Assembly (NCBI GenBank): GCA_963702005.1
Contig: OY969696.1
Location: forward strand, 2,208,001-2,272,000
Origin: Candidatus Aminicenantes bacterium
GTDB taxonomy: Bacteria; Acidobacteriota; Aminicenantia; Aminicenantales; JAFGBC01
Reading direction: 5' to 3'
DNA: 64,000 bases
Shown here: piece after piece, positions 3,373 to 17,989 of the stretch
How positions within the stretch are numbered: position 1 is the first letter of the stretch
How the letters are laid out: every line of letters begins with the position of its first letter
The notes under the pieces: model-generated
Databases searched by the model: none
What the model was told of the DNA's origin: nothing
What the model saw: only the letters and a program-made list of their open reading frames with translations
Translations under genes and position numbers: made by a program

Positions 3373-4008
3373 TCAGACGAAGATTGTGGCCAGAGTGTAG
3401 ATTGCGAAACCGAAAAGCATCAGGGCCAGGCCGATGAAGATTCTCTTGAAGGTCTTGGGTTGGAACTGAAGATGGTGCTTGGCGACGAAGCGGATCAGCA
3501 TGAAGTACCAGAGTAGGCTCCCCAGCCCGCAGGCCACGGAGAAGACGATCGGGCGCCAGCCGCTGTTGGACATATGGGTCCAAGGGTGGGCGGTCGTCAT
3601 GCCGGCGACGCCGAGCCAGAAGATGTAGATGGTCGGGTTCGAGATGTAGAGAAGGATGACCCCCAGGATCGGCTTGGCGTTGAGGGGCGGGATGTCCTGC
3701 GGAGTCACGGGCCGAGTGAAGGTCTTGCCCTGGCGGTAGAGCCGGGTGCTGAGAATGATCAAGACGAAAGAGGCCAGCACTTTCATCGGGATGAGGTATT
3801 TCATCATCGGGTCCGTGATCTGGGAGATCCCGATGAGGGCGATCAGGCAGTAGGCGGCGTCGAGAACGGATGTCGTCAGACCGCCGGAGATGCCGTGGAT
3901 GAAGCCTCTCTTCAGCGTCTGAGAGATGACATAGACATTGACAGGACCGAGCGGGATGGCGGCCAGGAAGCCGACGGCCAGTCCCACGATAATGATAATC
4001 CCCGCCAC
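3373..4008 (-). CDS. LysE/RhtB-family translocator
   Basis: 'AAIPLGPVNVYVISQTLKRG', 'ISNP' and multiple hydrophobic helices over 211 aa. Confidence 0.85.
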   Translation of the reverse strand: MAGIIIIVGLAVGFLAAIPLGPVNVYVISQTLKRGFIHGISGGLTTSVLDAAYCLIALIGISQITDPMMKYLIPMKVLASFVLIILSTRLYRQGKTFTRPVTPQDIPPLNAKPILGVILLYISNPTIYIFWLGVAGMTTAHPWTHMSNSGWRPIVFSVACGLGSLLWYFMLIRFVAKHHLQFQPKTFKRIFIGLALMLFGFAIYTLATIFV

Positions 4009-4144: not shown

Positions 4145-4726
4145 TCACAAGTGAAACGAAGTCCCCAGCCCGAGGCCGAACCTCCATCCTCCGAGATCGA
4201 CTTCGATGTCGAAGGGTTTGACCTTGAGCGGAATGTAGTGGGCTTCGATGAATCCGAACAGACCGGCCGCCAGCTTCGCCCGCACGCCCGCGCCGAAGAG
4301 GAGTGAGGTTTTCCGCCCCTTGGCCTGCAAGGAAAGGGGAAACGAGCTTTCGATCGTCTGCCTGTAAGAGAGGCCCGCGAGTCCGGCTTTGATGTAGGGA
4401 GCCCAGCGTCGGTCCAAGATCTTCCAAAGGGCGAATGCCTCCCAGCCTCGGACGGAAAGGTCGGTCTTTTCCTTGTAGAGGCCGATTTCCCCGGAACGGC
4501 AGTAGCCGAACTCGTAGCCCAGGGCGAGCGACAGGCCGTCCAGGACGCGCACGCCCAGGAAAGGGGCGGCCGCGTAGCCATTCCCGTAGACCTCTCGGAT
4601 CTGGCGGCTCCCCACGGTCCGAAAGGCGCCGAAAAGCGCGAGATCTAAGCTCAGGGGTTCGGCGCAAGAGACGAGAAGAAAGGTCAGCAGGATAAAGCCA
4701 AACCCAAGAAATTTCAATCCCCTCAT
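4145..4726 (-). CDS. Outer-membrane beta-barrel protein
   Basis: Signal peptide, alternating hydrophobic beta strands, 'PYIKAG' motif and aromatic C-terminal strand. Confidence 0.65.
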   Translation of the reverse strand: MRGLKFLGFGFILLTFLLVSCAEPLSLDLALFGAFRTVGSRQIREVYGNGYAAAPFLGVRVLDGLSLALGYEFGYCRSGEIGLYKEKTDLSVRGWEAFALWKILDRRWAPYIKAGLAGLSYRQTIESSFPLSLQAKGRKTSLLFGAGVRAKLAAGLFGFIEAHYIPLKVKPFDIEVDLGGWRFGLGLGTSFHL

Positions 4727-5033: not shown

Positions 5034-6599
5034 TCACTTTCTGAAGACGATGTTGAACGGTTTCCAGACCTTGACCCGGGCTCCATCTTTGATGGCGGGT
5101 CTGAATTTCCACTGCCTCATGGATGTCTCGGCGGCTCGGTCGAAGCCGAAACTCCCCTTTATCCCCCTCAGGATGGTCGTTTGGGTGACATCTCCGCTTT
5201 CGGAGATCAGCGCGTTGACCGTCACGACGCCTTCGATGCCGATCCTTCGGGCCATCTCGGGATAGATCGGTTGGACCCTTTTGGTCTCGACCGGCTGAGT
5301 GTCAACCTGGTCCAGCGGAATAAGGTCGCCCTCCTGAGCCTTACGGACCACCGGCTGGGACGACTCGGCCAGAGCAGGTTCCGTCTTTTCCGGAGCCGCT
5401 TCCGCTGGCTGAGGCTGGTTCTGGATCTGGAGCGTGGGCGTCTGAGCCGGGAGGATGGGGGCCAGCGTGTCCGACGTCCTTCCCGGCTGGGGAGCGGCCG
5501 TCTGGCCTCTGGAGGACCCGGCCGGGGTCGCCTGGGGCTTGGCGGCCGGCTTGGACTCGGCAGCTTGGGGCTGGGTTTGCTGCTGGGAGCCGTTCGGATT
5601 GGACGCCGGCTGTTGAGCGGCGGCATTTGTTTCCGGCACGTTACCGGGGGGGTTCTCAGCGGGCGTTTGAATGCCGGACGGCGTCGCCTCAGTCTGCTGG
5701 GCCGTCTCGACCAGGCCGGTCTCGCTCTTCTTCGGCTTGAGGACGAACATGACGAGGAGCGCGATGACGACGAGGCCGGCGCCGATCCCGATGATGAGCC
5801 CCACCTTCGATTTCTTCTTCTCGGGTTCTTCAATATATCCACCGAACGGCACCGAACCGGGCCGCGCCTCGACGCGCTTTTCTTCATGCTCCCGGACAGC
5901 CGGGGGGACGGTTTCTTCGAGGGCGGGAGGCGTGAAGACGGGCATCTCCTTGGGCTTTTTGGCCTTTTCTTTGGGAAGCTCGGGCTTCTCTTCGTGGCCG
6001 CTCTTGAGACCAAAGTCGGCCAGGGCGCTTTGCAGGATCGTGTCGATTTCGGCCTCGACGTCGGTGGCCCCTTCGGGCGGCTCGACCTTGGCCGTCGAGT
6101 CCTTACCCCCGGGCATCAGCAGACCCCATTCTTCGCTGAAGTCCAGCGCCTTGTCCTTGGCCTGGGCCGGAGCCGGTTCGGCCGCTTCCGGTTCGGGCGG
6201 TGCGGCCTCCGCGGCCGGCTGTTTCTCTCCTTTAAGGAGGTCCCGGAAGACGGGCTGGAGATCTTCTTTTTTCCAGGGTTTCTCGAAAAAGGCGGAAGCC
6301 CCGTAGAACCGGATGGCTTCCGATTTGTAGACCGATTCCCGATAGATGCCGGTCACGATGATGACGGGCACTTTCTTGGCGGAGTCATAAGCGATCTTCT
6401 TGCAGAGCTCGAACCCATGGAGCTTGGGCAGCATGGCCTCCATGATGACGAGGTCGGGCCGTTCGGCCTTGAACTTCTCGAGGCCGGTGATTCCGTCGCT
6501 GGCGGTGACGACGTCGCAACCCTCGCTCTGCGCGAAATCGGACAGCGATTTTAAGGATTCCGCATCGTAATCGATGATCAGCACCTTTTTCTGGCTCAT
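5034..6599 (-). CDS. Response-regulator receiver domain fused to membrane anchor and TonB C-terminal domain
   Basis: N-terminal REC fold (KKVLIIDYD...FFEKPW), one TM helix, Pro/Gln-rich linker, TonB_C (PIYPEMARRIGIEGVV...WKFRPA). Confidence 0.85.
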   Translation of the reverse strand: MSQKKVLIIDYDAESLKSLSDFAQSEGCDVVTASDGITGLEKFKAERPDLVIMEAMLPKLHGFELCKKIAYDSAKKVPVIIVTGIYRESVYKSEAIRFYGASAFFEKPWKKEDLQPVFRDLLKGEKQPAAEAAPPEPEAAEPAPAQAKDKALDFSEEWGLLMPGGKDSTAKVEPPEGATDVEAEIDTILQSALADFGLKSGHEEKPELPKEKAKKPKEMPVFTPPALEETVPPAVREHEEKRVEARPGSVPFGGYIEEPEKKKSKVGLIIGIGAGLVVIALLVMFVLKPKKSETGLVETAQQTEATPSGIQTPAENPPGNVPETNAAAQQPASNPNGSQQQTQPQAAESKPAAKPQATPAGSSRGQTAAPQPGRTSDTLAPILPAQTPTLQIQNQPQPAEAAPEKTEPALAESSQPVVRKAQEGDLIPLDQVDTQPVETKRVQPIYPEMARRIGIEGVVTVNALISESGDVTQTTILRGIKGSFGFDRAAETSMRQWKFRPAIKDGARVKVWKPFNIVFRK

Positions 6600-6758
6600 G
6601 CGCTGCCCTTCCTTTATTCGAAATCCGGCTTTTCCCTCGCCGGGAGGGTTAGGGCCGAGGAGGTATCTGCCCGCAAGTCTATTTTCATCGAAGGCGGCTA
6701 AACGTCAATCACCCTTTGAGGTGATTCCCAGGATGAAATTCCCCTCTTGGGGGGGGTG

Positions 6759-8537
6759 TTAGGACCGTCCTCGCCGAAAGCGATGAAACGAGGAAGCGGA
6801 TTGGGGTGAGTGAGGGGTCTCGAACCCCCAACCTTTGTCTTTTCTGCTCCCCGGACGGGTGCCGGGGCCGAGAATGGGCCGGCCCGGGCGCGCGTCCGTG
6901 ATCTTTCCTCCGTCGACGACCAGCTCTCCGTTGACCGCTACATATTCGAAGCCCTGGCTATAGTGGTTAGGGTCGGCATAGGTTGAGCGCTCCTGAACCG
7001 TGTCGGGGTCAAAAGCTACGATGTCCGCCGCCATCCCCGGCCGCAGCAGGCCTCGGTCGCGAAGACGCATCCGAGAGGCTGGCAACGAAGTCATCTTGCG
7101 GACCGCCTCTTCGAGCGGGATCAGCTTGACCTCGCGCACGTAGTGGCCAAGGATGCGGGCGGTCGTCGCCCAGGCCCTCGGATGTGATTTCTCGCGGGAA
7201 AAAATTCCGTCCTCGGCCGAAGTCTCCGAGTCGGTGCACATGGAAACCAGCGGATGCCTGAGCGCCGCTCGCACGTCCTCCTCGCTCATTCCGAAGGTCA
7301 CGCGCATCGTGTTCCCGCGGTCGGCGAGCACGATGTCCATGACGGTGTCGAGAGGATCCTTACCTTCGTCCCGCGCGATCTCGGCGATCGTCTGGCCCTC
7401 ATATTTCTTGAGGTCAAGATTGAGGACGCTCGTGATGAGAATACGCGAGGCGCCCTCGGGCCAGTCGGGATTTTCCGCCAGGAATTCGCGTTTGGCACGG
7501 CCGCGCGTCGTCGGGTCGCGGAGTCGTGCCAGGAGCTGCTCGAGGCTCCCTTCCTGAAGCCATGAGGGTAGACTGTCCACGAGTCCATTCGAACTCGCCG
7601 TCCACGGATATTGGTCGGCGGAGACATCCAGGCCCTGCGCCCGCGCCTCCTCCAGCCTCCTGAGGACGGCAGGCATGAGGCCCCAGTTTTCCTTTCCGGA
7701 CGTTTTGAGGTGGTAGATCTCCGCTGGAATCGCCGCTTCACGTGCGATGCGGAACACCTCATCCAGGCTGGCGTCGATGCCGCCATTATTGTCGTTACCC
7801 TCGTCCCGCTGGTGTGTGATGTAGCTTCCACCGTAGGAAGCGGCGATGCGGGCGAGGGCGATGATCTCATCCGTCGAGGCGTAGCGGTCGGGCACGTAAA
7901 TGAGCGCAGTCGACAGCCCCAGGGCCCCTTCTTCCATGGCCCGGGCCACGGCCGCCTTCATGATCTCGAGCTCCTCCGGCCGGGCACGGCGGTTTTCTTT
8001 GCCGATGACGAGATTGCGGATGCCGCCGGCGCCCACAAATGTCCCCAAATTGACGGCGGACCGTGCCCGCATGAACGCTTCCCAGTAGCCGGCAAGCGTC
8101 GTCCAATCGGGAGTCAGCCCGTACCGGCTCCAGACATCCCGCCCTTCTTCGATCATCCGTTGGTTCAGCGGGCCGATCGACGAACCCTCGCCCGTGATCT
8201 CGGTCGTGATGCCCTGGGTGATCTTGCTCGCGACGCGATTATCGACAAGGATCCTGTATTCGGACTGCCCCATCATGTCAATGAATCCGGGGGCGATGAC
8301 GAGGTGCGAGGCGTCGATCCGGCGCCTGGCAGTGGCCTTGGCGAGATTCCCGATAGCGGCGATCCGGTCACCGACGACGCCGACGTCGGCCCGGAACCAG
8401 GGCGCGCCGGTCCCGTCGACCACGCGGCCGCCCGCGAAAATCAGATCATAGACGGGTCCCTGGCCAAGACAAAGGCCCGCCGTGAGAATGAGCCCGATGA
8501 CCGTTCCGCTAAAGATTCTTATTTTGGCAGCGCCCAA
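6759..8537 (-). CDS. N-acyl-D-amino-acid deacylase (amidohydrolase family)
   Basis: 'YDLIFAGGRVVDGTG', 'APGFIDM', 'GLSTALIYVP', 'SHPRAW', 'GMAADIVAFD'. TTG start at 8537 after a GAGGAGG SD; signal peptide present. Confidence 0.9.
   Translation of the reverse strand: MGAAKIRIFSGTVIGLILTAGLCLGQGPVYDLIFAGGRVVDGTGAPWFRADVGVVGDRIAAIGNLAKATARRRIDASHLVIAPGFIDMMGQSEYRILVDNRVASKITQGITTEITGEGSSIGPLNQRMIEEGRDVWSRYGLTPDWTTLAGYWEAFMRARSAVNLGTFVGAGGIRNLVIGKENRRARPEELEIMKAAVARAMEEGALGLSTALIYVPDRYASTDEIIALARIAASYGGSYITHQRDEGNDNNGGIDASLDEVFRIAREAAIPAEIYHLKTSGKENWGLMPAVLRRLEEARAQGLDVSADQYPWTASSNGLVDSLPSWLQEGSLEQLLARLRDPTTRGRAKREFLAENPDWPEGASRILITSVLNLDLKKYEGQTIAEIARDEGKDPLDTVMDIVLADRGNTMRVTFGMSEEDVRAALRHPLVSMCTDSETSAEDGIFSREKSHPRAWATTARILGHYVREVKLIPLEEAVRKMTSLPASRMRLRDRGLLRPGMAADIVAFDPDTVQERSTYADPNHYSQGFEYVAVNGELVVDGGKITDARPGRPILGPGTRPGSRKDKGWGFETPHSPQSASSFHRFRRGRS
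6802..6835 (-). repeat. att-like 34-bp direct repeat of the tRNA-His 3' end
   Basis: tggggtgagtgaggggtctcgaacccccaacctt is identical to 16851-16884. Confidence 0.9.
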
Positions 8538-8896
8538 TTCGCCCTCCTCTTCGGCACATCCAATGCCTGGGAATAACCCAGCCTCTTTCTCTAACCGGCA
8601 ACCTGCGGGTTTGGGTCGGGGTTCTCCTGATCCCACGCCGCTGAACCTGCGCCGCAGAAAGTATAGGTGCCGGCCTGGAGCGATGTCAACTTGACCTGCC
8701 TTTATAAGATTGGGCCGGATATGGAAGTGGTATAGAGCAAGAAATTCGGAACTTAGACCCATCCTTAAATCGGCCCCGATGCCTCGCTAGGTACTGCCCA
8801 TTGGTGGAGGGGCACTCAGGTCCCCTTCAGCCCGGCCAGCCACATCCTGGCATCTTCAGGCTCTGCCGTTTATCGAATGGGATTTCGTTTTGCCCT

Positions 8897-9211
8897 CTAG
8901 TGAGTTGAGCGCTCGACAATCGCTTCCACTACCTCCATTATGACGAGGAGGACGGCAATAAACCCAAAGACCACGGCCAATATCACGACGGGTGAGCGGT
9001 CCTTGAACTTAATTAAGCTTACGATCCCGGTAACGAAAGCGGCAATTCCGGATATCATCATGGATGTTCCCAGCATAATAAGGAGGGGGCTCCCGATTTT
9101 CATTCCTTTCAATCCCAATAAATTCCTCCTGTTAAGAACCGCAATAAGAAGCGCAACGAACACGGCCATCAATATGCCGGCCCATTTTCCGAGTTTTGTT
9201 TTCGGCATCAT
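8897..9211 (-). CDS. Small 3-TM membrane protein
   Basis: MMPKTKLGKWAGILM...; hydrophobic helices; own promoter TTGACT-17-TATCCT at 9270-9242. Confidence 0.7.
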   Translation of the reverse strand: MMPKTKLGKWAGILMAVFVALLIAVLNRRNLLGLKGMKIGSPLLIMLGTSMMISGIAAFVTGIVSLIKFKDRSPVVILAVVFGFIAVLLVIMEVVEAIVERSTH

Positions 9212-9397
9212 TTTCCCCTTTCCCCTTTGTTTGCTGGTCAAAGGATAACGCCGTCGGGAAGGGAAGTCAATTAGTGGTGGCCTGTATGCTCAACGAGGCA
9301 TCACGCATACGAAGGCAGTCGGTCAGCACGGCACAATCAGCTGGGGGATGATGGGTCTGGCCTGCATAGGGGGCTTTCGGGGCTGCTGGACGCGGGC

Positions 9398-9522
9398 AGA
9401 CTCCGCCGCCGTGTCACACCGTTGTCACAAAAAGTGCTAAAACTCGTCTACTTCGGACTAAAGGTGCTTAAAAGGAAAACTTAGGAAACCTTAGATTATC
9501 AGGGAAAACGAGGGGATTAAGC
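9398..9522. repeat. Putative integrase arm region, copy 1
   Basis: AGACTCCGCC...TGTCACA-ccgt-TGTCACA (9412-9429); homologous to 11781-11905 and abuts a tRNA fragment. Confidence 0.65.
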
Positions 9523-9565
9523 TGGCTGGGAAGCAAGGATTCGAACCTCCGACCTTTGGATCCGG
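9523..9565 (-). repeat. Chimeric tRNA 3' fragment (Arg-CCG-like anticodon/T-arm 5' side plus Gln-like T-arm 3' side and acceptor, CCA)
   Basis: Minus strand reads CCGGATCCAAAGGTCGGAGGTTCGAATCCTTGCTTCCCAGCCA; 9536-9565 is identical to 10130-10159. Confidence 0.75.
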
Positions 9566-9587
9566 GAGGGAGGCCGACGACCTATCC

Positions 9588-10043
9588 CTATTTCAGGATG
9601 TCCTCTTCCCCTCTCTGTGCCTTTGCCAATTGCAGGTACTTCTTCGCCGATATGATTGCCAGAATTGCGGCGATCAGGTTCGCTCCAATACAGACCAGCA
9701 TCAAGATCGCCTCTGCGCGGAATCCTTCATAGAACTGCAGAGAATAGACGGCAAGTTGGAACACCATGAAGTCATGTAGAAATAAGAGGAGCGCCCCAAG
9801 ATAAAGGGGGCCGCTGAGCATTCTGACGCCGCGCCGGCTCAGAATGACAACGGCCAGCAAAACAACGACCGCAACCAATTGGATTGCAAAAAATATCTTG
9901 GAAGAAGAATCGACGCGGTCGGCAATCGCCTCAGGATGCGCGGCCAGTCGAGGCACGAACAAGAGAGCCCACAAAGCGGCCACTCCGATTGCGATTGCGG
10001 TTGCGGTATAGACCATGCGCCGCGAAGTGGTTTCTTTGTCCAT
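9588..10043 (-). CDS. Hypothetical 4-TM membrane protein
   Basis: GGAGG SD, about 151 aa, four hydrophobic segments. Confidence 0.7.
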   Translation of the reverse strand: MDKETTSRRMVYTATAIAIGVAALWALLFVPRLAAHPEAIADRVDSSSKIFFAIQLVAVVVLLAVVILSRRGVRMLSGPLYLGALLLFLHDFMVFQLAVYSLQFYEGFRAEAILMLVCIGANLIAAILAIISAKKYLQLAKAQRGEEDILK

Positions 10044-10116
10044 CACAGATACCTCCTTCCAATGCTGATCACTAGTTTATATCAGAATGCTTGACAACAA
10101 AATAGGGGGGGGGATG

Positions 10117-10162
10117 TGGCGTGCCTGAGAGGATTCGAACCTCCGACCTTTGGATCCGGAGG
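10117..10162 (-). repeat. 3' half of a tRNA-Arg(CCG)-like gene (att-like fragment)
   Basis: Minus strand reads CCTCCGGATCCAAAGGTCGGAGGTTCGAATCCTCTCAGGCACGCCA: anticodon loop CT-CCG-GA, T-arm and CCA. No 5' half is present. Confidence 0.8.
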
Positions 10163-10204
10163 CTCCCGGTGCTCTGGCACGAACGGGGATCCGGGCCCGG
10201 GCAT

Positions 10205-10483
10205 TCAGTTTGTCGGCTTGGTGTCCGGCAGGTCCTTGCCCGCTTTCTTCATGTATCTCCGGCCTTCCTCGTAGATGTCAAAATCCTCTTTCCTGTCCAG
10301 GCGCACCTTTTTCCTCTGTCCATCGTCGGTCTGGAAAATTACAAGATATGCGTGCTTGGAGAGAGTGCAGGTCTTCTTGGCCTCGACGGTCCCCGACCAT
10401 TCCTTGCGGCGATCCCTTTTTCTCCTAACCCAGGGTAAGAAAACGAGCCCGTCACCCAGGAGTTCAAGTATGAAATCAATCAT
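10205..10483 (-). CDS. Small hypothetical protein (DUF2500/OB-like, basic)
   Basis: 92-aa ORF with an AGAAGGAGG SD; family assignment is tentative. Confidence 0.6.
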   Translation of the reverse strand: MIDFILELLGDGLVFLPWVRRKRDRRKEWSGTVEAKKTCTLSKHAYLVIFQTDDGQRKKVRLDRKEDFDIYEEGRRYMKKAGKDLPDTKPTN

Positions 10484-10560
10484 TTCGAACCCTCCTTCTC
10501 ATCCGCCCCTCACCAGTCTCGGGGCAGGGTCTCCGCCCGCCGGACCTACCTTCCCGTTGC

Positions 10561-11385
10561 TTATTTTAGCGTCAGCCCGATCCTCTTTTTATCTTTCGCC
10601 CAATAAATATAGAGCGCTTTGCCTTTTACATTGGCGAGAGGGAGAGTTCCCCAGTAGCGGCTGTCGTAGCTATTGTCGCGATTATCTCCGAGAACGAAAC
10701 AATGGCCAGCGGGCATCTTAAGCGGGCCGAAGTTGTCCCGGCTGTTGTCTATGACGATATCCTCGTGGACCTTGTATGATTCCTGGAGGGGTTCGTTACC
10801 GATAAAGACTTGCTTATTTTTTATTTCGACCGTTTCGCCTTCAAGAGCGATGACACGCATGAGAAATTGCTTTGTGGGATCTCGAGGATACTCGAAAACG
10901 ACTAAATCCCCCCGCTTAGGCGCCTGGTCGCTAAAGCCTTTTGGGTCCGTCATCAAGAAATCGTCTTTTTGAAGAGTCGGCATCATGGAGGCCGAAGGAA
11001 ACTTGTACGGTGAGACGCCTAGAGACGTCATCCAAATCCTTGCCGGAACGAAAATCTTCAAGCCGAGTGAAAGAATGATAAAGAACGCATAGACGAGAGG
11101 CGTTTGATATTTCCTAAGCCCCGTCTCCTTGGTCCGGCGCGCCTGGACAAAAGCGTGGATGATAGTGAACAACCAGAAAACAAAGACGGCTAGGACGAGC
11201 GCCATGAACCCGCTAAAATGGCGCGGCCAGCCGGCCAATCCCCAAAGAAAAGGTAGGGCGACAGAGAAGACAAAGAATATAATTCCAAGGACACCTTTCC
11301 CGTTATAGATCTGTCCGAGACCAGGAACGAGCAAAGACAGAAGGGCGGCGATGAACGGATTCCTTTTTTTCTTTTCGGCGGTCAT
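10561..11385 (-). CDS. lepB: Signal peptidase I paralog with extra N-terminal TM domain
   Basis: 'PSASMMPTL', 'FVLGDNRDNSYDSRYWG'; N-terminal 'LSLLVPGLGQIYNG' membrane domain. Confidence 0.85.
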   Translation of the reverse strand: MTAEKKKRNPFIAALLSLLVPGLGQIYNGKGVLGIIFFVFSVALPFLWGLAGWPRHFSGFMALVLAVFVFWLFTIIHAFVQARRTKETGLRKYQTPLVYAFFIILSLGLKIFVPARIWMTSLGVSPYKFPSASMMPTLQKDDFLMTDPKGFSDQAPKRGDLVVFEYPRDPTKQFLMRVIALEGETVEIKNKQVFIGNEPLQESYKVHEDIVIDNSRDNFGPLKMPAGHCFVLGDNRDNSYDSRYWGTLPLANVKGKALYIYWAKDKKRIGLTLK

Positions 11386-11638
11386 GATTCCCTCCCTACG
11401 TTCGTTGATTTCTTGGTTTCTTTTCCCCCCGGGGACCCGCGAGCCCAGCTCATCGCAGCGTTCTCTATATCGCGCAGAAAGGAAAAGAAATTGACCTCTG
11501 GCACGGGATGGCTTTCCCTCCCATTAAGCCCGGGACCCCTCTCCCTCGGTACGAAAAGATGATATTCCCAAGCTTGATTCTATGTCAAGGACCAGTATGG
11601 AGAACGACTGAGTTATCATAAGTTCGGGGCCTTAAGAT

Positions 11639-11782
11639 TGACCTGCCACCCCTTAAACCGATCCAGGCATAATGAGAAAAACCTGGGAGAAAGGAGCCTT
11701 AATGGGCAGGGTATGGTTCACTCCGGAACAAATCATTGAAAAGCTCCGTGAGGCCGAAGTCCTCAGATCTATCGAAATCTAG
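11639..11782 (+). mobile_element. IS3-family left-end remnant with truncated orfA
   Basis: TG-starting terminus TGACCTGCCACCCC..., SD AAAGGAG, and ORF 11702-11782 MGRVWFTPEQIIEKLREAEVL, typical of IS3/IS407 OrfA. Confidence 0.7.
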
Positions 11783-11905
11783 ACTCCGCCCCATGTCACA
11801 AATATGTCACAGATTGTGCCTAAACTCGCTTAACTTAGCCTAACGGAACCTAAATAGGAAAAAGCCTAACTTTCTTATTCACCAGGGGAAAACAGGGAGA
11901 ACAGG
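11781..11905. repeat. Putative integrase arm region, copy 2
   Basis: AGACTCCGCC...TGTCACA-aata-TGTCACA (11794-11811); same spacing to the tRNA CCA as copy 1 (94 vs 93 nt). Confidence 0.65.
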
Positions 11906-11954
11906 TGGGGTGAGTGAGGGGTCTCGAACCCCCAACCTTCGGATCCACAGTCCG
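11906..11954 (-). repeat. att-like 49-bp direct repeat of the tRNA-His 3' half
   Basis: Identical to 16851-16899, including the anticodon arm. Confidence 0.9.
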
Positions 11955-12456
11955 GGAAGTGCGCGCCCCATTCGGTTTTCAATCGACCGTGAACAAAAGG
12001 CTTCCCAGCCGGACGGGATCCTTCTCGTGCATCGCGGCACGCCGGTTGGATCTATTAAGTTATGATAAGGCTGGGAAAAGGAGGCAAGCCGTGAAGCGGA
12101 AAGGCGTCGTCTTCCTAGCTTCCTTCGATTTGTTGTTCATAGTGCTGAGTGTCTTGCTCTACGGGTCTTTCGCTCCCGCCGATCAAGTCGGCTCGCTGCT
12201 GGTAACAAACAACAGCGACCTGGTCAACAGGGATACGTCCAGCCCGGACACGCTGGTCGCCAACCCGGGGCCCGACGGCATCTCACTCCGGGAGGACATG
12301 CTCGCGGCCGCGGGCGCTACGACATCCCTCGCAATTAGCTTCACCCCGTCTTTGAGGGTGGACTGACCCCCAAAAATTGAACCACCCCGAGTGCTAAATA
12401 TTAGGATGCTATAATAGACATCATCAGCCGGGAGAAGGCCTTTAAAGGAGGCTCTG

Positions 12457-12768
12457 ATGGTGTCCGAGAAACACGGCAAACGGTACACGGCGCGGTTCAA
12501 GTTCCAGGTGGTGATGGAAATCTTAAGCGGGGCCAAGGCCATCGGACAGATCGCGCGGTCCTATGGCGTTCATCCGGTGACTCTCAGCCATTGGAAGAAA
12601 GAGTTCATCGAAAAAGGGCCGGAGATCTTCTCCCAGCACACCACGATCCAGGAGTACGAGAAACGGATCGAGGACTTGGAACGGTTAATCGGCCATAAAG
12701 AAGTGGAGATCGCGCTCCTAAAAAATTTCATGGCCGGGAGCTCACCCCGGGGGAAAAAGTTGAGCTGA
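12457..12768 (+). CDS. IS3 transposase OrfA (HTH)
   Basis: 'KRYTARFKFQVVMEIL...IARSYGVHPVTLSHWKK' plus a leucine-zipper region. Confidence 0.9.
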   Translation: MVSEKHGKRYTARFKFQVVMEILSGAKAIGQIARSYGVHPVTLSHWKKEFIEKGPEIFSQHTTIQEYEKRIEDLERLIGHKEVEIALLKNFMAGSSPRGKKLS

Positions 12769-13637
12769 CGCGGGCGTTTAAGGACGACTATGGGCTGAAC
12801 AGAGTCTTGGCGGCTCTGGGGCTTTCGAAAGGGACTTGGCATTATGCCCAGACGAGACCGAGTTATGAAGAGAAGCATGTCGGGCTGAGGAAACCGTTGC
12901 TCGAGATTGCCAGAACCCATCCGGAATACGGATACCGGAGGACGAGTGCCGAGCTCCGGGATCGAGGAATCCAGGTCAATCGGAAAGTCGTGGCGCGTCT
13001 GCATGGGACCTGGGATTTAGCCGTGATTCGACGGGTGAGGAAGCCGAAAACAAGCTCCCTGGCAAAGCTTCTTAAAGACACCGGGTCTAAGATCAATCTC
13101 GTGGCCGGCCTGACCGAGATCGATGATTTTGAGGTCGTCTATACGGATTTTACGGAGCTGCTCTACCGGAGAGGCCGGGCGAAAGCCCAGCTGATGCCGT
13201 TCGTGGATCATTCGAGCAAACTCGTTTTAGGCCACGCCCTGGGAGAGGCGGATAATACGGAGTTGGCCCTGGACGCCTGGCGCAAGGCGAAGACGACGCT
13301 CCGAAGATACGGACGGACAACGGAAGGGCTGATCGTTCATCATGATCAGGATGGTGTTTATTTAGGCCATGGCTGGCTCCGTGAGCTTGCCGTCCAGGAT
13401 AAAGTGCGCGTTTCCTATTCGGAAAACGGGGCCAAGGGCAACGTCCACATGGAGTCGTTCAATTCCCGATTCAAAGCCGAGAATCGGCTGTTGTTTTGGG
13501 AACAGGAAGATCTCCCTTCATTGAAAAAGGTTGTCGGGCAGCGGATCCGGTACTATAATCACGTTCGTCGACACTCGGCGTTGGGTTACCAATCGCCGAT
13601 TCGATATCTCAAAGAAAAGGGCCGAAGACCCGGCTGA
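12765..13637 (+). CDS. IS3 transposase OrfB (DDE/rve), likely reached by -1 frameshift
   Basis: 'YGYRR', 'TDFT', 'HHDQDG', 'MESFNSRFKAE', 'YYNHVRRHSALGYQSP'; A-run slippery candidates near 12720 and 12754. Start approximate. Confidence 0.9.
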   Translation: MTRAFKDDYGLNRVLAALGLSKGTWHYAQTRPSYEEKHVGLRKPLLEIARTHPEYGYRRTSAELRDRGIQVNRKVVARLHGTWDLAVIRRVRKPKTSSLAKLLKDTGSKINLVAGLTEIDDFEVVYTDFTELLYRRGRAKAQLMPFVDHSSKLVLGHALGEADNTELALDAWRKAKTTLRRYGRTTEGLIVHHDQDGVYLGHGWLRELAVQDKVRVSYSENGAKGNVHMESFNSRFKAENRLLFWEQEDLPSLKKVVGQRIRYYNHVRRHSALGYQSPIRYLKEKGRRPG

Positions 13638-13904
13638 GATGTTAGCGGAATTTAGCCCTCTAAGTGGTTCGAAAAATGGGGGTCATGTCCGGGCCCCAAG
13701 ATCTCAATCTCAGATAGGCTGCCGCGCATCACGGGGGGCAGCTTGAAGATCACGGGCGACATTAACGCCGACGGCACGTCGGACATCTCGCTCGACGGCG
13801 GGAAGAAAGCCGCGGAAGCGAATTCTAAGGATCTTTCAGAATCCAAACATCTCCCACTATCACCAACATGTCGCAAATTCGGTTGAAAAGCGCGTAAACT
13901 ACGT

Positions 13905-14030
13905 CATTGAAATCGATGCCTCTTTCGACGAGTTGGGCTGCAAACGTGTGCCGTAGGTCATGAAATCGAAGGCCCCTGATCCCAGCTCTACGTGTGGTTG
14001 CGTTGAAAGCCGTCTTGACATCAAGGGGCC
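13905..14030 (-). pseudogene. Tyrosine recombinase/integrase fragment
   Basis: Reads '[38 protein letters not shown]' (H-x-x-R box). The N-terminus and catalytic Tyr region are missing. Confidence 0.8.
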
Positions 14031-14043
14031 GCGGTTCTATCCT
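14015..14043 (+). promoter_or_regulatory. Sigma70-type promoter for the kinase gene
   Basis: TTGACA-17 bp-TATCCT. Confidence 0.55.
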
Positions 14044-14071
14044 CTGGGCAGACAAGGACTGGGATGGGCGC

Positions 14072-16750
14072 ATGATCGGCCAGCTCGTTTCCCACTACCG
14101 GATCCTGGAGAAGCTCGGCGGCGGAGGCATGGGCGTCGTCTACAAGGCCGAAGACACCAGGCTCAAGCGCGCGGTCGCCCTGAAGTTCCTGCCCGAGGAG
14201 TCGCTCCAAGAGCCGCACGCCCTGGAGCGCTTCGAGCGGGAGGCCCAGGCCGCATCGGCCCTGAACCACCCGGGGATCTGCACCATTTTCGATATCGACC
14301 AACACCAGGGACGCCATTTCATCGCCATGGAGCTACTCGAGGGCCGGACCCTGAAGCGGCGCATCCTCGGCCAGCCGGTCCCGGCCGACGAGATCATCAA
14401 TCTAGCTATCCAGATCGCCGACGCCCTCGACGCCGCCCACGGCAAGGGCATCATCCATCGGGACATCAAGCCGGACAACATCTTCGTCACCGATCGCGGC
14501 CTAGCCAAGATCCTCGATTTCGGCCTGGCCAAAACGATGCCGCGAGAAACGGCTGCCGCGGGCTCGGCCGGCCCGACCGTCACCGCCCCGGAGCCGCTGA
14601 CCGGAGCCGGCGCGGCGGTCGGGACGGTGGCTTATATGTCCCCGGAGCAGGCCCGGGGCGAGCCGCTTGATGCCCGCACCGATCTTTTTTCCTTAGGCGT
14701 CGTGCTCTACGAAATGGCGACAGGTCGGCAGGCCTTTACTGGCTCCACCTCGGCCGTCATCTTCGACGCCATCCTTCATAAAGCCCCGACATCTCCCGTC
14801 CGGCTGAACCCGGATGTCCCGCCCGAGCTGGAGCGGATCATCAACAAGGCCCTGGAGAAAGAACGGCGGTTGCGCTACCAGAGCGCGGCCGAGATCCGGG
14901 CCGATCTCGAGCGGCTGAAACGGGATTCCACCTCGGCGCGCATAGCCGCCTTTGAAGACCAAGCGGCGCCATCGGCAGGCCCCATCGCCTCGGGGCGTAA
15001 GAGACGCCGATGGATCCCTTGGGCCGCGGGGGCAGTCGCCGTGCTCGTCTTAGCCGCGGCCGGCATGCTTCTCCTAATGGGGCATAAAAAGCCCTCCGAA
15101 ACAGCCGTTCCCCAAGTGGCCAACGCTGTCAAAGTGACCACCGCCATGGGTGCCAAGGACTGCCCAAGCTGGTCTCCGGACGGCCGCATGCTGGTCTACC
15201 AGTCCGACCAAGCAGGGAACTGGGACATCTGGGTCACCCAGGTCGGGACGAGCCAGGCCGTCAACCGGACGGCCGACAGCCCGGCCAACGAGATGAATCC
15301 CACCTGGTCGCCGGATGGTCAGTGGATCGCCTTCTTTTCGGACCGGACCGAACGCGGCTACTACGTCATGCCCGGGATCGGCGGCAAGGCCCATCGGATC
15401 GCCTCTTTGGAGTTTGCCGATGCCTATCCGACGGCGGCCCAATGGTCTCCGGACAGTACTCATCTGGCCTATGCCCTGCGCCAGCGCGTCGAACCCTACA
15501 TCGAGATCCTGACCGTGGCCAGTGGCCAATCCAAGAGGCTGACGCTTCCGAACCGGGCCCGCAACAATTCCATCATCGACATGAGCTGGTCGCCCGACGG
15601 GCGCTGGCTCGCCTATGCCCGGGCCATTAGCCCCATCGCAGCGACCGCCGAACTGTGGCTGACGCACACGACCGACGAGAAGAGCTTCCAGCTGACCGAC
15701 GGGACCTTGAGGGATACCAGCCCGACCTGGTCTCCGGACGGCCGCGAGCTCTATTTCATCTCCAATCGCGGCGGGACGCCTGACCTCTGGCGGTTCGCGA
15801 TTGGCGGCCAGGGACTGCCGGAGGGGCCGCCGCGGCAGATCACGGCCGGCATCGAGATGACCCATGCCGTCATAGCCCCGGGCGGACGGACGTTGGCCTA
15901 TTCCAAAGGCCGGACGGTCCGCAACGCGTTCCGGGCCCCCCTCCCGGCGGGCCGGCCGATCACCTGGACGGACGCCACCCAGCTGACCTTCGACGAAGCG
16001 GAGATCGAGTCCGTCGAAGTCTCAAAGGACGGACGGATCCTGGTCAGCTCGGACAGATCGGGAAACTGGGACATCTACCTGCTGTCCCCGGACTCGGGCG
16101 ATCTGCAACAACTGACGACCGATCCGGGAGTGGATGCGGGCCCGCGCTGGAAGCCCGACGGCAGCGAGATCGCGTTCTACTCGTCGAGAACGGGCCATCG
16201 GGAAATATGGCTCATGCCCGTGGGCGGCGGCCCGGCGCGGCAACTCACCCACGGCGAGGTCGAGAGTTTCAACCCGGCTTGGTCCCCCGACGGGAAGTCC
16301 ATCACCATGGAGAGCGGGGGCATTTTGATCCTCGACCCTCAAAGCCTCAAGGTGAGGAACTTAACCGACAAAGAAACCAATTGCCACCCGGACTGGTCCC
16401 CTGACGGGCGCTGGGTGGCCTTCAGTGAAAAGGGCAACCAAGGGTGGCAGATTTTTCGCATCGCAGCCTCCGGTGGGCTGGTCGAGCAGCTGACACGAGG
16501 AGGAGGCTGGACGCCCCGTTGGTCCCCCGACGGGAAGCGGATCTACATGATCGGCACCGGAAGCCGGAGGAATGCCATCTGGGCCCTATCACTCGAGAGC
16601 CGGGAGGAATGGCCGGTGACAGCATTGACCGGCCGGCGCGGCGCGCTGGGATATAACGGCCTAGCCGTCGACGGCCGGTTCCTCTATTTCACCTGGGAAG
16701 AGGTGCGCAGCGACATCTGGGTCGCCGATATCGTCCGGCCGGTGAAGTGA
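14072..16750 (+). CDS. Hanks-type Ser/Thr protein kinase with TM helix and TolB-like (PD40) beta-propeller
   Basis: [30 protein letters not shown]; many WSPDG repeats; ATG at 14072 (MIGQLVSHY). Confidence 0.95.
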
Positions 16751-16850
16751 CCGCCTGTCCGTTTTTCTTAACAAGAGTTCAATTAATCCAAAATGATTTG
16801 TATAAGGAGATTCTCTTATCAGGCTAACTGATTGAATATTGAGGGAACAG

Positions 16851-16928
16851 TGGGGTGAGTGAGGGGTCTCGAACCCCCAACCTTCGGATCCACAGTCCGA
16901 TGCTCTAACCAATTGAGCTACACTCACC
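16851..16928 (-). tRNA. tRNA-His(GTG)
   Basis: GGTGAGTGTAGCTCAATTGGTTAGAGCATCGGACTGTGGATCCGAAGGTTGGGGGTTCGAGACCCCTCACTCACCCCA; G-1:C73, GTG anticodon, encoded CCA; upstream TTGACA-17-GAAAAT. Confidence 0.97.
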
Positions 16929-17074
16929 GTCCCTTCGGAGGCGTATGATTTTCTCATCTCGTCGCCCCATTGTCAATACTGGCTCCAACTCGTTTTATAT
17001 CAATCAATTATGGTAAATTTCGGCCTCCCAAAAAAGGCTTAATACCCAAGTCCGGAAGGGCCGGCCCGGCTTGA

Positions 17075-17989
17075 CTATCGTTTCTGGCCCTCGATGAGGT
17101 CGAGGACGTCGGCCGAATCGCGCCAGCGGGGCCGGACCTTGACCTGGAGGTCGAGATAGATCCGGGTCTTGAGGATGTCCTCGATCTCCCGGCGGGCCTC
17201 GCTCCCGATCGCTTTGAGAAGCTGGGCGTGGCGGCCGATGACGATTTTGCGTTGGGAGTCCTTTTCGACGAGGATGCTTGCTTGGAGGTAGATGACGGGC
17301 GGGCGGGGGGCTTGTCCTTCCGGCGTCTCGGCGCTGCGTTCCTCGATCTGCTCGAGGAGGACGGCCGTCACGAAAGGCAGCTCCTGTTCGACGCGCGCGA
17401 GGAGTTTCTCGCGGATGATTTCGGCCAAGAAGAACCGTTGAGACTGGTCTGTGATCTCGTCGGCTGCATAAAGCCGGTCCGCTTCGGGGAGAGCGTGGTA
17501 GAGGCAGTCCTCGAGCCGGTCGAGGTTGATCCCCTTGAGGGCCGAGATGGGGATGATCTCCTTGAAGGCCAGGAGGTCCTTGTAGCGGTCGATGAGGGGG
17601 AGGAGCTTGTCTTTCCGGATCAGGTCGACCTTGTTGAGGAGGAGGAATAGGGGCTTGGAGACGTCCTTGAGGATCTCCAGGGCGTAGGCGTCCCCGTGGC
17701 CGAAAGGCTGGGCGGCGTCGACGAGAAGGCAGACCAGGTCCGCCGTCTGGAGGGAGGTGAAGACAAAGTTCATCATCCGGCGGTTGAGGCCGTGCAGGGG
17801 TTTGTGGATGCCGGGGTTGTCGATGAAGACGATCTGTCCCCGGTCGCCGGTCTTGATGCCCAGGATGCTGATGCGGGTCGTCTGGGGTTTATCCGAGACG
17901 ATGGCGACCTTGCGGCCCAGGATCCGGTTGAGGAGGGTCGACTTTCCCGCGTTGGGCCGGCCGACCAGGGCGACGGTCCCCGAGTTCAT
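17075..17989 (-). CDS. era: GTPase Era
   Basis: GRPNAGKST, PQTTR, DNPG, NKVD and a KH domain. Confidence 0.95.
   Translation of the reverse strand: MNSGTVALVGRPNAGKSTLLNRILGRKVAIVSDKPQTTRISILGIKTGDRGQIVFIDNPGIHKPLHGLNRRMMNFVFTSLQTADLVCLLVDAAQPFGHGDAYALEILKDVSKPLFLLLNKVDLIRKDKLLPLIDRYKDLLAFKEIIPISALKGINLDRLEDCLYHALPEADRLYAADEITDQSQRFFLAEIIREKLLARVEQELPFVTAVLLEQIEERSAETPEGQAPRPPVIYLQASILVEKDSQRKIVIGRHAQLLKAIGSEARREIEDILKTRIYLDLQVKVRPRWRDSADVLDLIEGQKR

What the first reader, a model, noticed from the sequence alone, without database searches (positions are those of the whole stretch)
9523..9565. Chimeric Arg/Gln tRNA fragment with crossover in the T-loop
Seen: 30 bp (9536-9565) are identical to the Arg(CCG)-like fragment (10130-10159). 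Beyond GGTTCGAATCCT the sequence switches to TGCTTCCCAGCCA, which breaks T-stem pairing (GGAGG vs CCTTG). Known: U1-A72 with G73 (...CCCAGCCA) is characteristic of bacterial tRNA-Gln. Inference: this is a recombination junction between att sites of two different tRNAs via the universally conserved TPsiC loop, implying a promiscuous recombinase that can move cargo between tRNA loci.
Basis: partly seen in the sequence, partly recalled or inferred. Interest (0 to 1): 0.72.

Follow-up and report, generated by a model that had tools for sequence, protein, structure and literature searches.

The report
Hybrid Arg/Gln tRNA attachment-site scar
A 43-base piece of DNA really is half tRNA-Arg and half tRNA-Gln, joined in the T-loop; it is a leftover recombination scar between the docking sites of two mobile islands, not a gene.

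Summary
Window 9536-9565 (- strand) is identical to the Arg(CCG)-like fragment at 10130-10159. Window 9523-9548 is identical to the 3' end of this genome's own tRNA-Gln(CTG), 180 kb away. The two identities overlap in 13 nt, AGGTTCGAATCCT. It is not a tRNA gene and not an assembly error. The same chimera occurs in a sister species, in three metagenome contigs and in one bridging contig of a public run.

Homologues of both parents were found. In relative G150, the ORF152 homologue is followed by an ordinary Arg fragment with the same odd 5' flank. Homology to the window stops at ...GAATCCT. In relative G025, an intact tRNA-Gln(CTG) plus about 140 nt of island arm is collinear with the right half.

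The chimera is therefore a fossil junction between a tRNA-Arg-derived and a tRNA-Gln-derived island attachment site. It lies in a decayed island array at tRNA-His that has no working integrase, inside a 2.56-kb module that has moved between species.

The enzyme is unresolved. I lean towards an off-target T-loop crossover by a tyrosine integrase (about 0.4). Microhomology-driven illegitimate recombination is close behind (about 0.35). A 'promiscuous recombinase' is not shown.

The parts
9523..9565 (-). Chimeric tRNA-derived fragment (fragA). 9536-9565 is Arg(CCG)-type, from the anticodon loop to the T loop. 9523-9548 is the tRNA-Gln(CTG) T loop to CCA. The shared 13 nt at 9536-9548 contain the junction.
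9566..9587 (-). Degenerate remnant resembling the D loop and 5' anticodon stem of a tRNA-Arg(CCG) (GGATAG..TCGGCCT), with 5 extra bases in the anticodon loop. G150 has a closely similar 5' flank (one C fewer).
9380..9522 (-). Island 'arm' that begins directly after the CCA of the chimera. It is homologous to the sequence that follows intact tRNA-Gln(CTG) in G025, and to that following tRNA-Glu(CTC), tRNA-Asp and a Glu fragment in G000. The best conserved part is 9394-9480 and holds direct repeats of GTGACA/GTTACA type.
9588..10046 (-). ORF152, a small predicted membrane protein with no Pfam or PADLOC family. It is the cargo of a mini-islet bounded by Arg fragments. Homologues occur in 17 of 246 genomes of the order.
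10117..10175 (-). fragB. 10117-10162 is an exact 3' part of a foreign-type tRNA-Arg(CCG), from the anticodon loop to CCA. 10163-10175 is a decayed 5' extension, so the whole looks like a pseudo-tRNA-Arg.
10205..10483 (-). ORF92, with a weak DUF7489 match below the Pfam cut-off. It is 95% identical in DNA to genome 3704-4020, beside other Arg fragments.
10561..11385 (-). Signal peptidase I-like gene (Peptidase_S26), part of the transferred 2.56-kb module.
11899..11954 (-). tRNA-His 3' fragment (56 nt, 98% identical to window 16845-16899). It is the left edge of the 2.56-kb module 9395-11954 shared at 95.7% with G001.
6802..6835 (-). Distal tRNA-His 3' fragment (34/34 nt), the end of the tRNA-His island array.
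16851..16927 (-). Intact tRNA-His(GTG), the head of the array.
13894..14022 (-). Relic of a tyrosine integrase (89-aa open frame). It is the only PF00589 match within the array.
12807..13637 (+). IS3-type transposase (rve domains) within the first island of the array.

Best explanation
fragA is a fossil hybrid attachment site.

Left half. It descends from the distal tRNA-Arg(CCG) fragment that closes a tiny integrase-less islet carrying ORF152. That islet was acquired from a lineage whose native tRNA-Arg(CCG) has this sequence.

Right half. It is the T-loop-to-CCA end of tRNA-Gln(CTG) together with the left arm of an island of the same arm family that docks at tRNA-Gln.

Junction. The two were joined by one crossover inside the 13 nt that both T arms share (AGGTTCGAATCCT).

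Mechanism I think most likely. A tyrosine integrase made the crossover at the symmetric T-loop sublocation (5-bp stems around TTCGAAT) on a non-cognate pair of sites. One route is recombination between an attL at one tRNA-derived site and an attR at the other.

Present state. The scar is now inert. It travels as a passenger in a 2.56-kb module that sits in the tRNA-His array here and beside tRNA-Leu(CAA) in the sister species.

Shown: the chimera, homologues of both parents, the position of the junction, and the mobility of the module. Inferred: the enzyme and the order of events.
For: 1. The exact identities to both tRNA types overlap in 13 nt.
2. G150 keeps the unchimeric state: intact tRNA-Arg(CCG), then the ORF152 homologue (75% DNA identity), then an Arg fragment with a near-identical 5' flank (GCCTCCCTCCGGATCC; the window has one more C). 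The alignment with the window ends at ...GAATCCT.
3. The G025 tRNA-Gln(CTG) plus arm is 71% identical over 145 nt, starting right after CCA.
4. Arms of this family follow tRNA-Glu, Asp, Arg(TCG), His-fragment and Arg fragments. Both partners therefore belong to one family of islands.
5. A roughly 460-aa integrase family was found in 89 of 246 genomes. In 24 of 30 examined loci a tRNA match lies behind the integrase gene, with targets including Arg(CCG) and Gln(CTG). Targets are scattered over its tree, so site switching is frequent.
6. T-arm-bounded Arg fragments exist. Four have unrelated upstream letters and all start at TCGGAGG (G000 193438, G005, G187, G190:C17). One starts at TTCGAATCC (G000 2801).
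7. The T loop is one of the recognised crossover subsites in tRNA genes (PMC4383910, Table 1 footnote; passages read).
8. The Arg T arm shares 17 nt with tRNA-Gln(TTG) but the partner is Gln(CTG) with 13 nt, so length of identity alone did not choose the partner.
9. L073 carries the same 43 nt with a different 5' flank from the anticodon loop on and a diverged arm. This fits repeated or continued site-specific use.
Against: - There is no intact integrase in or near the array.
- In none of the 24 integrase loci with a tRNA match does the match begin at the T arm. The canonical crossover of this family is probably the anticodon loop.
- Gln fragments in G025 and G023 also begin at the anticodon loop.
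- The reciprocal Gln-5'/Arg-3' junction was not found: 0 of 246 genomes with up to 2 mismatches, and 0 in viral contigs.
- The upstream flanks of three T-bounded Arg fragments share no arm. The G190:C17 copy was not examined, because the script landed on another copy.
- Only 2 non-chimeric non-canonical Gln 3' ends turned up in 246 genomes, and both still have the T-stem 5' strand. This gives no support for a T-loop class at tRNA-Gln, apart from one fragment in G002.
- The Arg(CCG) and Gln(CTG) integrases are not sisters on the tree.
Confidence: 0.4

Rival explanations
1. The parents are the same, but no recombinase was involved. The junction arose by RecA-independent illegitimate recombination at the 13-nt microhomology. 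Examples are replication slippage or a microhomology-mediated deletion or joining between two tRNA-derived scars lying in one composite island.
For: - The T loop is the most conserved stretch of tRNAs, so it is the natural microhomology between any two tRNA relics (one search lists dozens of GGTTCRANTCC sites in the genome).
- Island arrays here place many fragments in direct orientation within a few kb.
- The array at genome 2.4-4.6 kb has breakpoints in the variable and T-loop region with 6 nt missing between the two halves. That looks imprecise.
- There is no integrase nearby and no reciprocal product.
- The integrase family is of the anticodon class.
Against: - It needs Arg and Gln scars in one array, which was not seen. 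In G045, G057 and G025 the two tRNA genes lie on different contigs.
- The partner is not the tRNA with the longest shared T arm, which is Gln(TTG) with 17 nt.
- The same chimera occurs in L073 with other flanks.
- Four Arg fragments share exactly one boundary at TCGGAGG, which is unlike random breakage.
Confidence: 0.35
2. The chimera is a living hybrid attachment site. It is still used as a target by Arg-type integrases at its anticodon-loop half. This lets integrase-less single-gene islets be placed next to Gln-type islands and shuttle between arrays.
For: - The 43 nt are 100% conserved in G000, G001 and L073, while the arm behind them has diverged and the 5' flank differs from the anticodon loop on.
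- Mini-islets without an integrase are common: G150 Arg-ORF152 (about 1.1 kb), G023 Gln (914 bp), G025 Gln (6.3 kb).
Against: - Only three contexts are known, two of which are one lineage.
- Independent formation from conserved tRNA sequences explains the perfect identity equally well.
- No excision product or integrase was seen here.
- The window copy has 5 extra bases in the anticodon loop, which would damage such a site.
Confidence: 0.12
3. It is a single natural tRNA or tRNA pseudogene that drifted by point mutation, or it is an assembly artefact.
For: The T stem is only weakened (one G-G mismatch and one G-T pair). A degenerate D-loop-like stretch lies upstream.
Against: - No tRNA is called by ARAGORN or Rfam.
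- The exact 31-mer occurs in no other species representative than the sister MAG.
- The 14 nt after the T loop match tRNA-Gln exactly, and the 17 nt before it match Arg fragments exactly.
- Five independent assemblies and one bridging contig hold it.
Confidence: 0.02

Closest known systems
tRNA-gene attachment-site fragments and tandem island arrays (Islander signature; PMC4383910, abstract and passages read; Williams 2002 NAR 30:866 recalled, seen only in that paper's reference list)
   Same: - 3' tRNA fragments in the orientation of the tRNA mark island ends.
- Arrays hold several fragments.
- Crossover subsites are the anticodon loop, the T loop and the T/acceptor junction.
- The tRNA-His array here (16851-16927, 11899-11954, 6802-6835) fits this signature.
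   Different: - fragA combines two different tRNAs.
- Its Gln half lies 180 kb upstream of the tRNA-Gln gene.
- Its Arg half matches no tRNA of this genome.
- There is no integrase in the interval.
- It would fail Islander's configuration and integrase filters.
Integrase-driven recombination between tRNA genes in Thermococcales (Int-pTN3; PMC5495485, abstract and passages read)
   Same: A tyrosine integrase is proposed to recombine tRNA genes other than its att site. Comparative genomics there pointed to endpoints in different tRNA genes (Leu/Thr, Leu/Gly).
   Different: - That is an archaeal enzyme that needs about 100 bp of identity.
- The Leu/Thr pair failed in vitro.
- The outcome there is large inversions.
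- Here the identity is 13 nt, the host is a bacterium and the product is a small scar inside an island.
Secondary-site integration and hybrid att sites of lambda-type integrases; accretion and cis-mobilisable elements (CIMEs) of ICEs (recalled; PMC5812530 seen only in a search listing)
   Same: attL x attR recombination between elements at different sites gives hybrid sites. Integrase-less elements flanked by att sites persist and can be moved by relatives.
   Different: No experimental system exists here. The sites are tRNA-derived, and the hybrid joins two tRNA species at the T loop.
Tycheposon islands of marine bacteria (bioRxiv 10.1101/2020.12.28.424599, passages read)
   Same: Islands next to tRNA genes are filled by successive integrations. 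They contain partial tRNAs, fragmented integrases and degenerate elements. The integrases cluster by target tRNA.
   Different: - That text has no mention of 'chimer' or 'hybrid'.
- The integrase family here does not cluster cleanly by target.
- The phylum is different.

Membership tests
Functional tRNA gene | Cloverleaf with paired acceptor, D, anticodon and T stems, called by tRNA finders | tested here: not met
   ARAGORN finds no gene at 9523-9620 or 10117-10200. The Rfam tRNA model gives no match there at E up to 1. There is no 5' acceptor strand, and the T stem has a G-G mismatch.
Island att fragment of a tRNA gene (Islander signature) | Fragment identical to the 3' part of a tRNA gene of the same replicon, in the same orientation and downstream of it | tested here: not met
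   The Gln half is identical to tRNA-Gln(CTG), but it lies 179.6 kb upstream of it in the gene's orientation. The Arg half differs from the genome's tRNA-Arg(CCG). By contrast, the His fragments around it do meet this feature.
Island att fragment of a tRNA gene (Islander signature) | Tyrosine integrase gene inside the interval | tested here: not met
   PF00589 search of the genome: 12 matches, none near 9.5-10.2 kb of the window. The only one in the array is an 89-aa relic at 13894-14022.
Island att fragment of a tRNA gene (Islander signature) | Homologous locus elsewhere with an intact tRNA, cargo and distal fragment | tested here: met
   G150 (L080): tRNA-Arg(CCG) at 841-915, the ORF152 homologue, then an Arg fragment 43 nt behind it.
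T-loop sublocation crossover by a tyrosine integrase | Junction falls in the 7-nt T loop flanked by the inverted T-stem arms | tested here: met
   The junction interval is AGGTTCGAATCCT (9536-9548). Homology with G150 ends at ...GAATCCT, and homology with tRNA-Gln starts at AGGTTCG.
T-loop sublocation crossover by a tyrosine integrase | An integrase that exchanges strands at that site | not testable with these tools
   Only indirect hints are available. Four Arg fragments share the boundary TCGGAGG. However, the integrase family next to tRNA fragments is of the anticodon class: in 24 of 30 loci with a match, none starts at the T arm.
Reciprocal site-specific exchange | Presence of the reciprocal junction (Gln 5' part + Arg 3' end) | tested here: not met
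   0 of 246 genomes of the order with up to 2 mismatches. 0 in viral contigs.

The most novel reading that the evidence does not exclude
In Aminicenantes, tRNA-derived half-sites act as portable docking modules for a population of integrase-less single-gene islets. The Arg/Gln hybrid would be a working adaptor: its anticodon-loop half is still a target for Arg-type integrases, while its 3' half and arm belong to Gln-type islands. Cassettes could then hop between the island arrays of different tRNA genes through T-loop exchange. This would be an integron-like cassette economy built on tRNA fragments.
Probability: 0.12. Interest if true: 0.65.

Novelty: new variant of a known kind. Interest (0 to 1): 0.4.

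Why it matters
Island arrays at tRNA genes are usually read as stacks of scars from one tRNA. Here a scar joins two different tRNAs, and homologues of both parents are still visible in relatives. That makes it a rare, datable footprint of how islands or their cargo change docking site.

If an integrase made the junction, it shows the anticodon-loop/T-loop flexibility long inferred from integrase phylogeny, caught in the act. If microhomology made it, it shows that the universal T loop is a hotspot for shuffling island remnants.

In either case it warns annotators that tRNA fragments in such genomes can be foreign or composite. It also shows that a 2.56-kb piece of a dead island still moved between two Aminicenantes species.

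Tried and rejected
- Rfam scan of 6000-17500 at E up to 1: only tRNA-His and a chance mgtE match. Nothing at the fragments or the arm.
- Pfam and PADLOC on ORF152, ORF92, ORF114, ORF162 and the 393-aa protein beside the G025 arm: no families, or only matches below the cut-off.
- Search for a conserved protein next to the arms: all-against-all BLASTP of ORFs of at least 110 aa from 11 arm-flanked regions found none shared. The arms therefore do not mark a nearby unknown recombinase.
- The idea that upstream sequence completes a cloverleaf: a GGGGAAG stretch could pair with CTTCCC, but it lies in the ORF152 coding end and no tRNA is called. Rejected.
- The fragment at genome 193.4 kb as a second chimera: its fold gave no tRNA-like shape. 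Left open.
- Reciprocal junction: not found.
- Chimera in viral contigs: 0.
- T-loop class at tRNA-Gln: only variant fragments were found.
- Common arm upstream of T-bounded Arg fragments: none among G000, G005 and G187. For G190 my script picked another copy, so that one was not examined.
- Reads: only Logan contigs were on offer, so single raw reads across the junction were not seen. In X1 and X17 contigs stop at 9536, the repeat edge. Only X2 record 18 bridges.
- Literature: three searches and passages in four papers gave no description of an Arg/Gln or other chimeric tRNA att fragment. Supplements were closed and might hold such cases.
- MEPS values for RecA, lambda secondary sites, CIMEs and chloroplast chimeric tRNA pseudogenes are recalled, not checked.

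Full report
**What is there**

On the - strand the window reads ...CCGGATCCAAAGGTCGGAGGTTCGAATCCTTGCTTCCCAGCCA at 9565-9523.
- The first 30 nt (9565-9536) are identical to 10159-10130.
- The last 26 nt (9548-9523) are identical to the 3' end of the genome's single tRNA-Gln(CTG), c[2037846-2037919].
- The two identities share AGGTTCGAATCCT (13 nt).
- ARAGORN finds only tRNA-His (16851-16927, -) and tRNA-Arg(CCT) in the window. Rfam finds no tRNA at either fragment.

The organism is an Aminicenantes bacterium. This comes from the record title of the only other genome that holds the chimera. The window is G000:C1:2208001-2272000 of a single 4.31-Mb contig.

**The Arg part is foreign**

The genome's own tRNA-Arg(CCG) at 2366448-2366523 differs in the anticodon stem and the acceptor stem (CAGCCGC against CAGGCAC).

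The exact 30-mer occurs four times in the genome, all outside tRNA genes: 3573-3602, 4543-4572 and the two window copies.

The 27-mer core, with up to 1 mismatch, occurs in 16 of 61 related genomes. In several genomes of family f4 it is part of an intact tRNA-Arg(CCG) (L015, L017, L019, L026, L035). It is also repeated as fragments there: 13 matches in G019 and 7 in G005. That tRNA is therefore an integration hot spot in those lineages, and the copies in G000 came in with mobile DNA.

The tRNA-Gln(CTG) 3' 25-mer, with up to 1 mismatch, is in 39 of 61 genomes. It is exact in families f1, f2, f3, f4 and f9. The Gln half does not therefore tell where the chimera formed.

**Setting**

The site lies in an island array at tRNA-His.
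- The gene is at 16851-16927.
- A 56-nt 3' fragment is at 11899-11954 and a 34-nt one at 6802-6835, all on the - strand.
- Between them Pfam finds a Ser/Thr kinase with PD40 repeats, an IS3-type transposase, a signal peptidase I-like gene, a weak sub-cut-off DUF7489 match (ORF92), a weak sub-cut-off DUF6688 match (ORF114) and an amidohydrolase. ORF152 matches no family.
- Of 12 PF00589 matches in the genome, only an 89-aa relic (13894-14022) lies in the array.

The order on the - strand is: His fragment, peptidase, ORF92, fragB (10162-10117), ORF152 (10046-9588), fragA (9565-9523), and then a conserved arm.

**The arm**

The 143 nt after the CCA of fragA (9522-9380) are homologous to several other sequences:
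- the sequence that directly follows intact tRNA-Gln(CTG) in G025 (71% over 145 nt);
- the sequence after both tRNA-Glu(CTC) copies, a Glu fragment, tRNA-Asp and tRNA-Arg(TCG) of G000;
- the sequence after the His fragment at 11862-11781;
- the sequence after Arg fragments in G005, G051 and G001.

No protein is shared next to these arms.

**Both parents**

ORF152 has homologues in 17 of 246 genomes of the order.

Left parent, in G150 (L080):
- An intact tRNA-Arg(CCG) is followed by the ORF152 homologue.
- 43 nt behind that lies an ordinary Arg fragment with the same peculiar 5' flank: GCCTCCCTCCGGATCC...GGTTCGAATCCTCTCAGGCACGG.
- The alignment with the window (75% over 545 nt) ends at ...GAATCCT.
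- fragB, with its decayed 5' extension, corresponds to the tRNA-Arg of that arrangement.

Right parent, in G025:
- The tRNA-Gln(CTG) plus arm is collinear with fragA from AGGTTCG onward.

The left side of fragA is therefore an Arg att fragment, the right side is a Gln attL-type junction, and the switch lies in the T loop.

**Not an artefact, and mobile**

The exact 31-mer is in one other species representative, G001:C192. A 28-mer is in three metagenome contigs.

L071 and L072 repeat the G001 arrangement. There the module equal to window 9395-11954 is 95.6-95.7% identical, while neighbouring core genes are 81-85% identical. It lies in an island on the 5' side of tRNA-Leu(CAA), not at tRNA-His.

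L073 holds the same 43 nt with a different 5' flank from the anticodon loop on and a diverged arm. Only 73 nt are alike, at 89%.

A 1399-nt contig of run X2 spans 9412-10300. Only contigs could be laid, not raw reads.

**Mechanism**

A family of roughly 460-aa tyrosine integrases is present in 89 of 246 genomes.
- In 24 of 30 examined loci, a tRNA match lies within 450 nt behind the integrase gene. Targets include Arg(CCG), His, Asp, Ala, Arg(CCT/TCT/ACG/TCG), Gln(CTG) and a Lys/Val-like tRNA.
- The match begins near the D or anticodon arm, or covers the whole tRNA. It never begins at the T arm.
- Targets are scattered over the tree. Gln(CTG), Arg(CCT), Ala(GGC) and Asp each appear in two clades, and Arg(CCG) sits on a long unresolved branch.
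- Gln fragments in G025 and G023 also begin in the anticodon loop.

A T-loop junction is therefore not the usual product of this family.

On the other hand, among 22 Arg-type 3' ends with a non-canonical base 15 nt before the T loop (in 19 of 246 genomes), four begin exactly at TCGGAGG behind unrelated letters. One begins at TTCGAATCC. G002 has a Gln fragment starting at AAGGTTCG. For three of the T-bounded Arg fragments, the upstream flanks share no arm.

The reciprocal junction was not found.

The T loop is a recognised crossover subsite (PMC4383910, passages). Integrase-linked recombination between tRNA genes is documented in Thermococcales (PMC5495485, passages). Thirteen nt is short for RecA-dependent exchange (recalled). 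The Arg T arm shares 17 nt with tRNA-Gln(TTG), which was not the partner.

**Verdict**

This is a real fossil hybrid att scar, and homologues of both parents are identified.
- Junction between Arg- and Gln-derived att sequences in the T loop: about 0.85.
- Made by an integrase acting off-target at the T loop: about 0.4.
- Made by microhomology-driven illegitimate recombination: about 0.35.
- Still an active hybrid site: about 0.12.

The 'promiscuous recombinase' is not shown.

Noticed in passing
G000:C1:2421-4575 (locus L001): A second graveyard of Arg(CCG)-type fragments lies beside a GH94 gene. It holds a full fragment at 4530-4575, a fragment with a roughly 90-nt 5' extension at 3559-3690, a T-loop-to-CCA piece at 2796-2819 placed directly after the stop of a 162-aa membrane ORF, and a repeat of the 5' extension plus anticodon arm at 2421-2540. 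The 3' piece precedes the 5' piece, as if a small circle had been inserted with a break between the variable loop and the T loop; 6 nt are missing.
   Followed up: partly
window 9394-9480; G000 347294-347378, 3143191-3143274, 1789977-1790102, 1792109-1792220: A conserved 85-140-nt 'arm' directly follows many tRNA 3' ends. It has direct repeats (GTGACA/GTTACA spaced about 11 nt apart) and ends in a GGAGAGG-like stretch. It could hold integrase arm sites or a promoter and leader. No Rfam match.
   Followed up: partly
window 6759-6835: The amidohydrolase ORF (6759-8762, -) runs through the distal tRNA-His fragment. Its last roughly 25 codons are therefore read from tRNA-derived DNA. The Pfam match ends at residue 616 of 667.
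   Followed up: no
G000:C1:89457-198281: tRNA-Val(CAC) with an adjacent integrase (89638-90069) is followed by Val-type fragments at about 167.4, 172.2, 177.2 and 198.3 kb, some of a foreign Val type. This looks like an island array of about 110 kb. An Arg-type T-arm fragment sits inside it at 193435-193464.
   Followed up: no
G000:C1:2583030-2583102 and 2584979-2585058; L072 7562-7640: The 5' part of tRNA-Leu(CAA) with its upstream flank is duplicated about 1.9 kb upstream of the gene. In the G001-type genomes the island carrying the module lies between such a 5' duplicate and the gene. This is integration with a 5' tRNA fragment, the rarer configuration.
   Followed up: no
G000:C1:3143121-3143344 (locus L006): A Glu(CTC) 3' fragment, an arm and a Leu(TAA) 3' fragment lie within about 220 nt. 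ARAGORN calls the last one a tRNA-Leu(TAA) with an aberrant 5' half. It is probably another composite of att scars from two tRNAs, though not fused in a loop.
   Followed up: no
L074 (G025:C12:73800-80722): A 6.3-kb islet at tRNA-Gln(CTG) carries an AbiEii/AbiEi pair and a 393-aa protein of no known family right behind the arm. It has no PF00589 gene. A second arm follows its distal Gln fragment, so the islands are in tandem.
   Followed up: partly
G000:C1:1789899-1793918 (locus L007): tRNA-Glu(CTC) is followed 2.1 kb later by a 5'-truncated second copy. About 1.8 kb further on there is a tRNA-His 3' fragment (55 nt, 100%). This is another array that mixes scars of different tRNAs.
   Followed up: no
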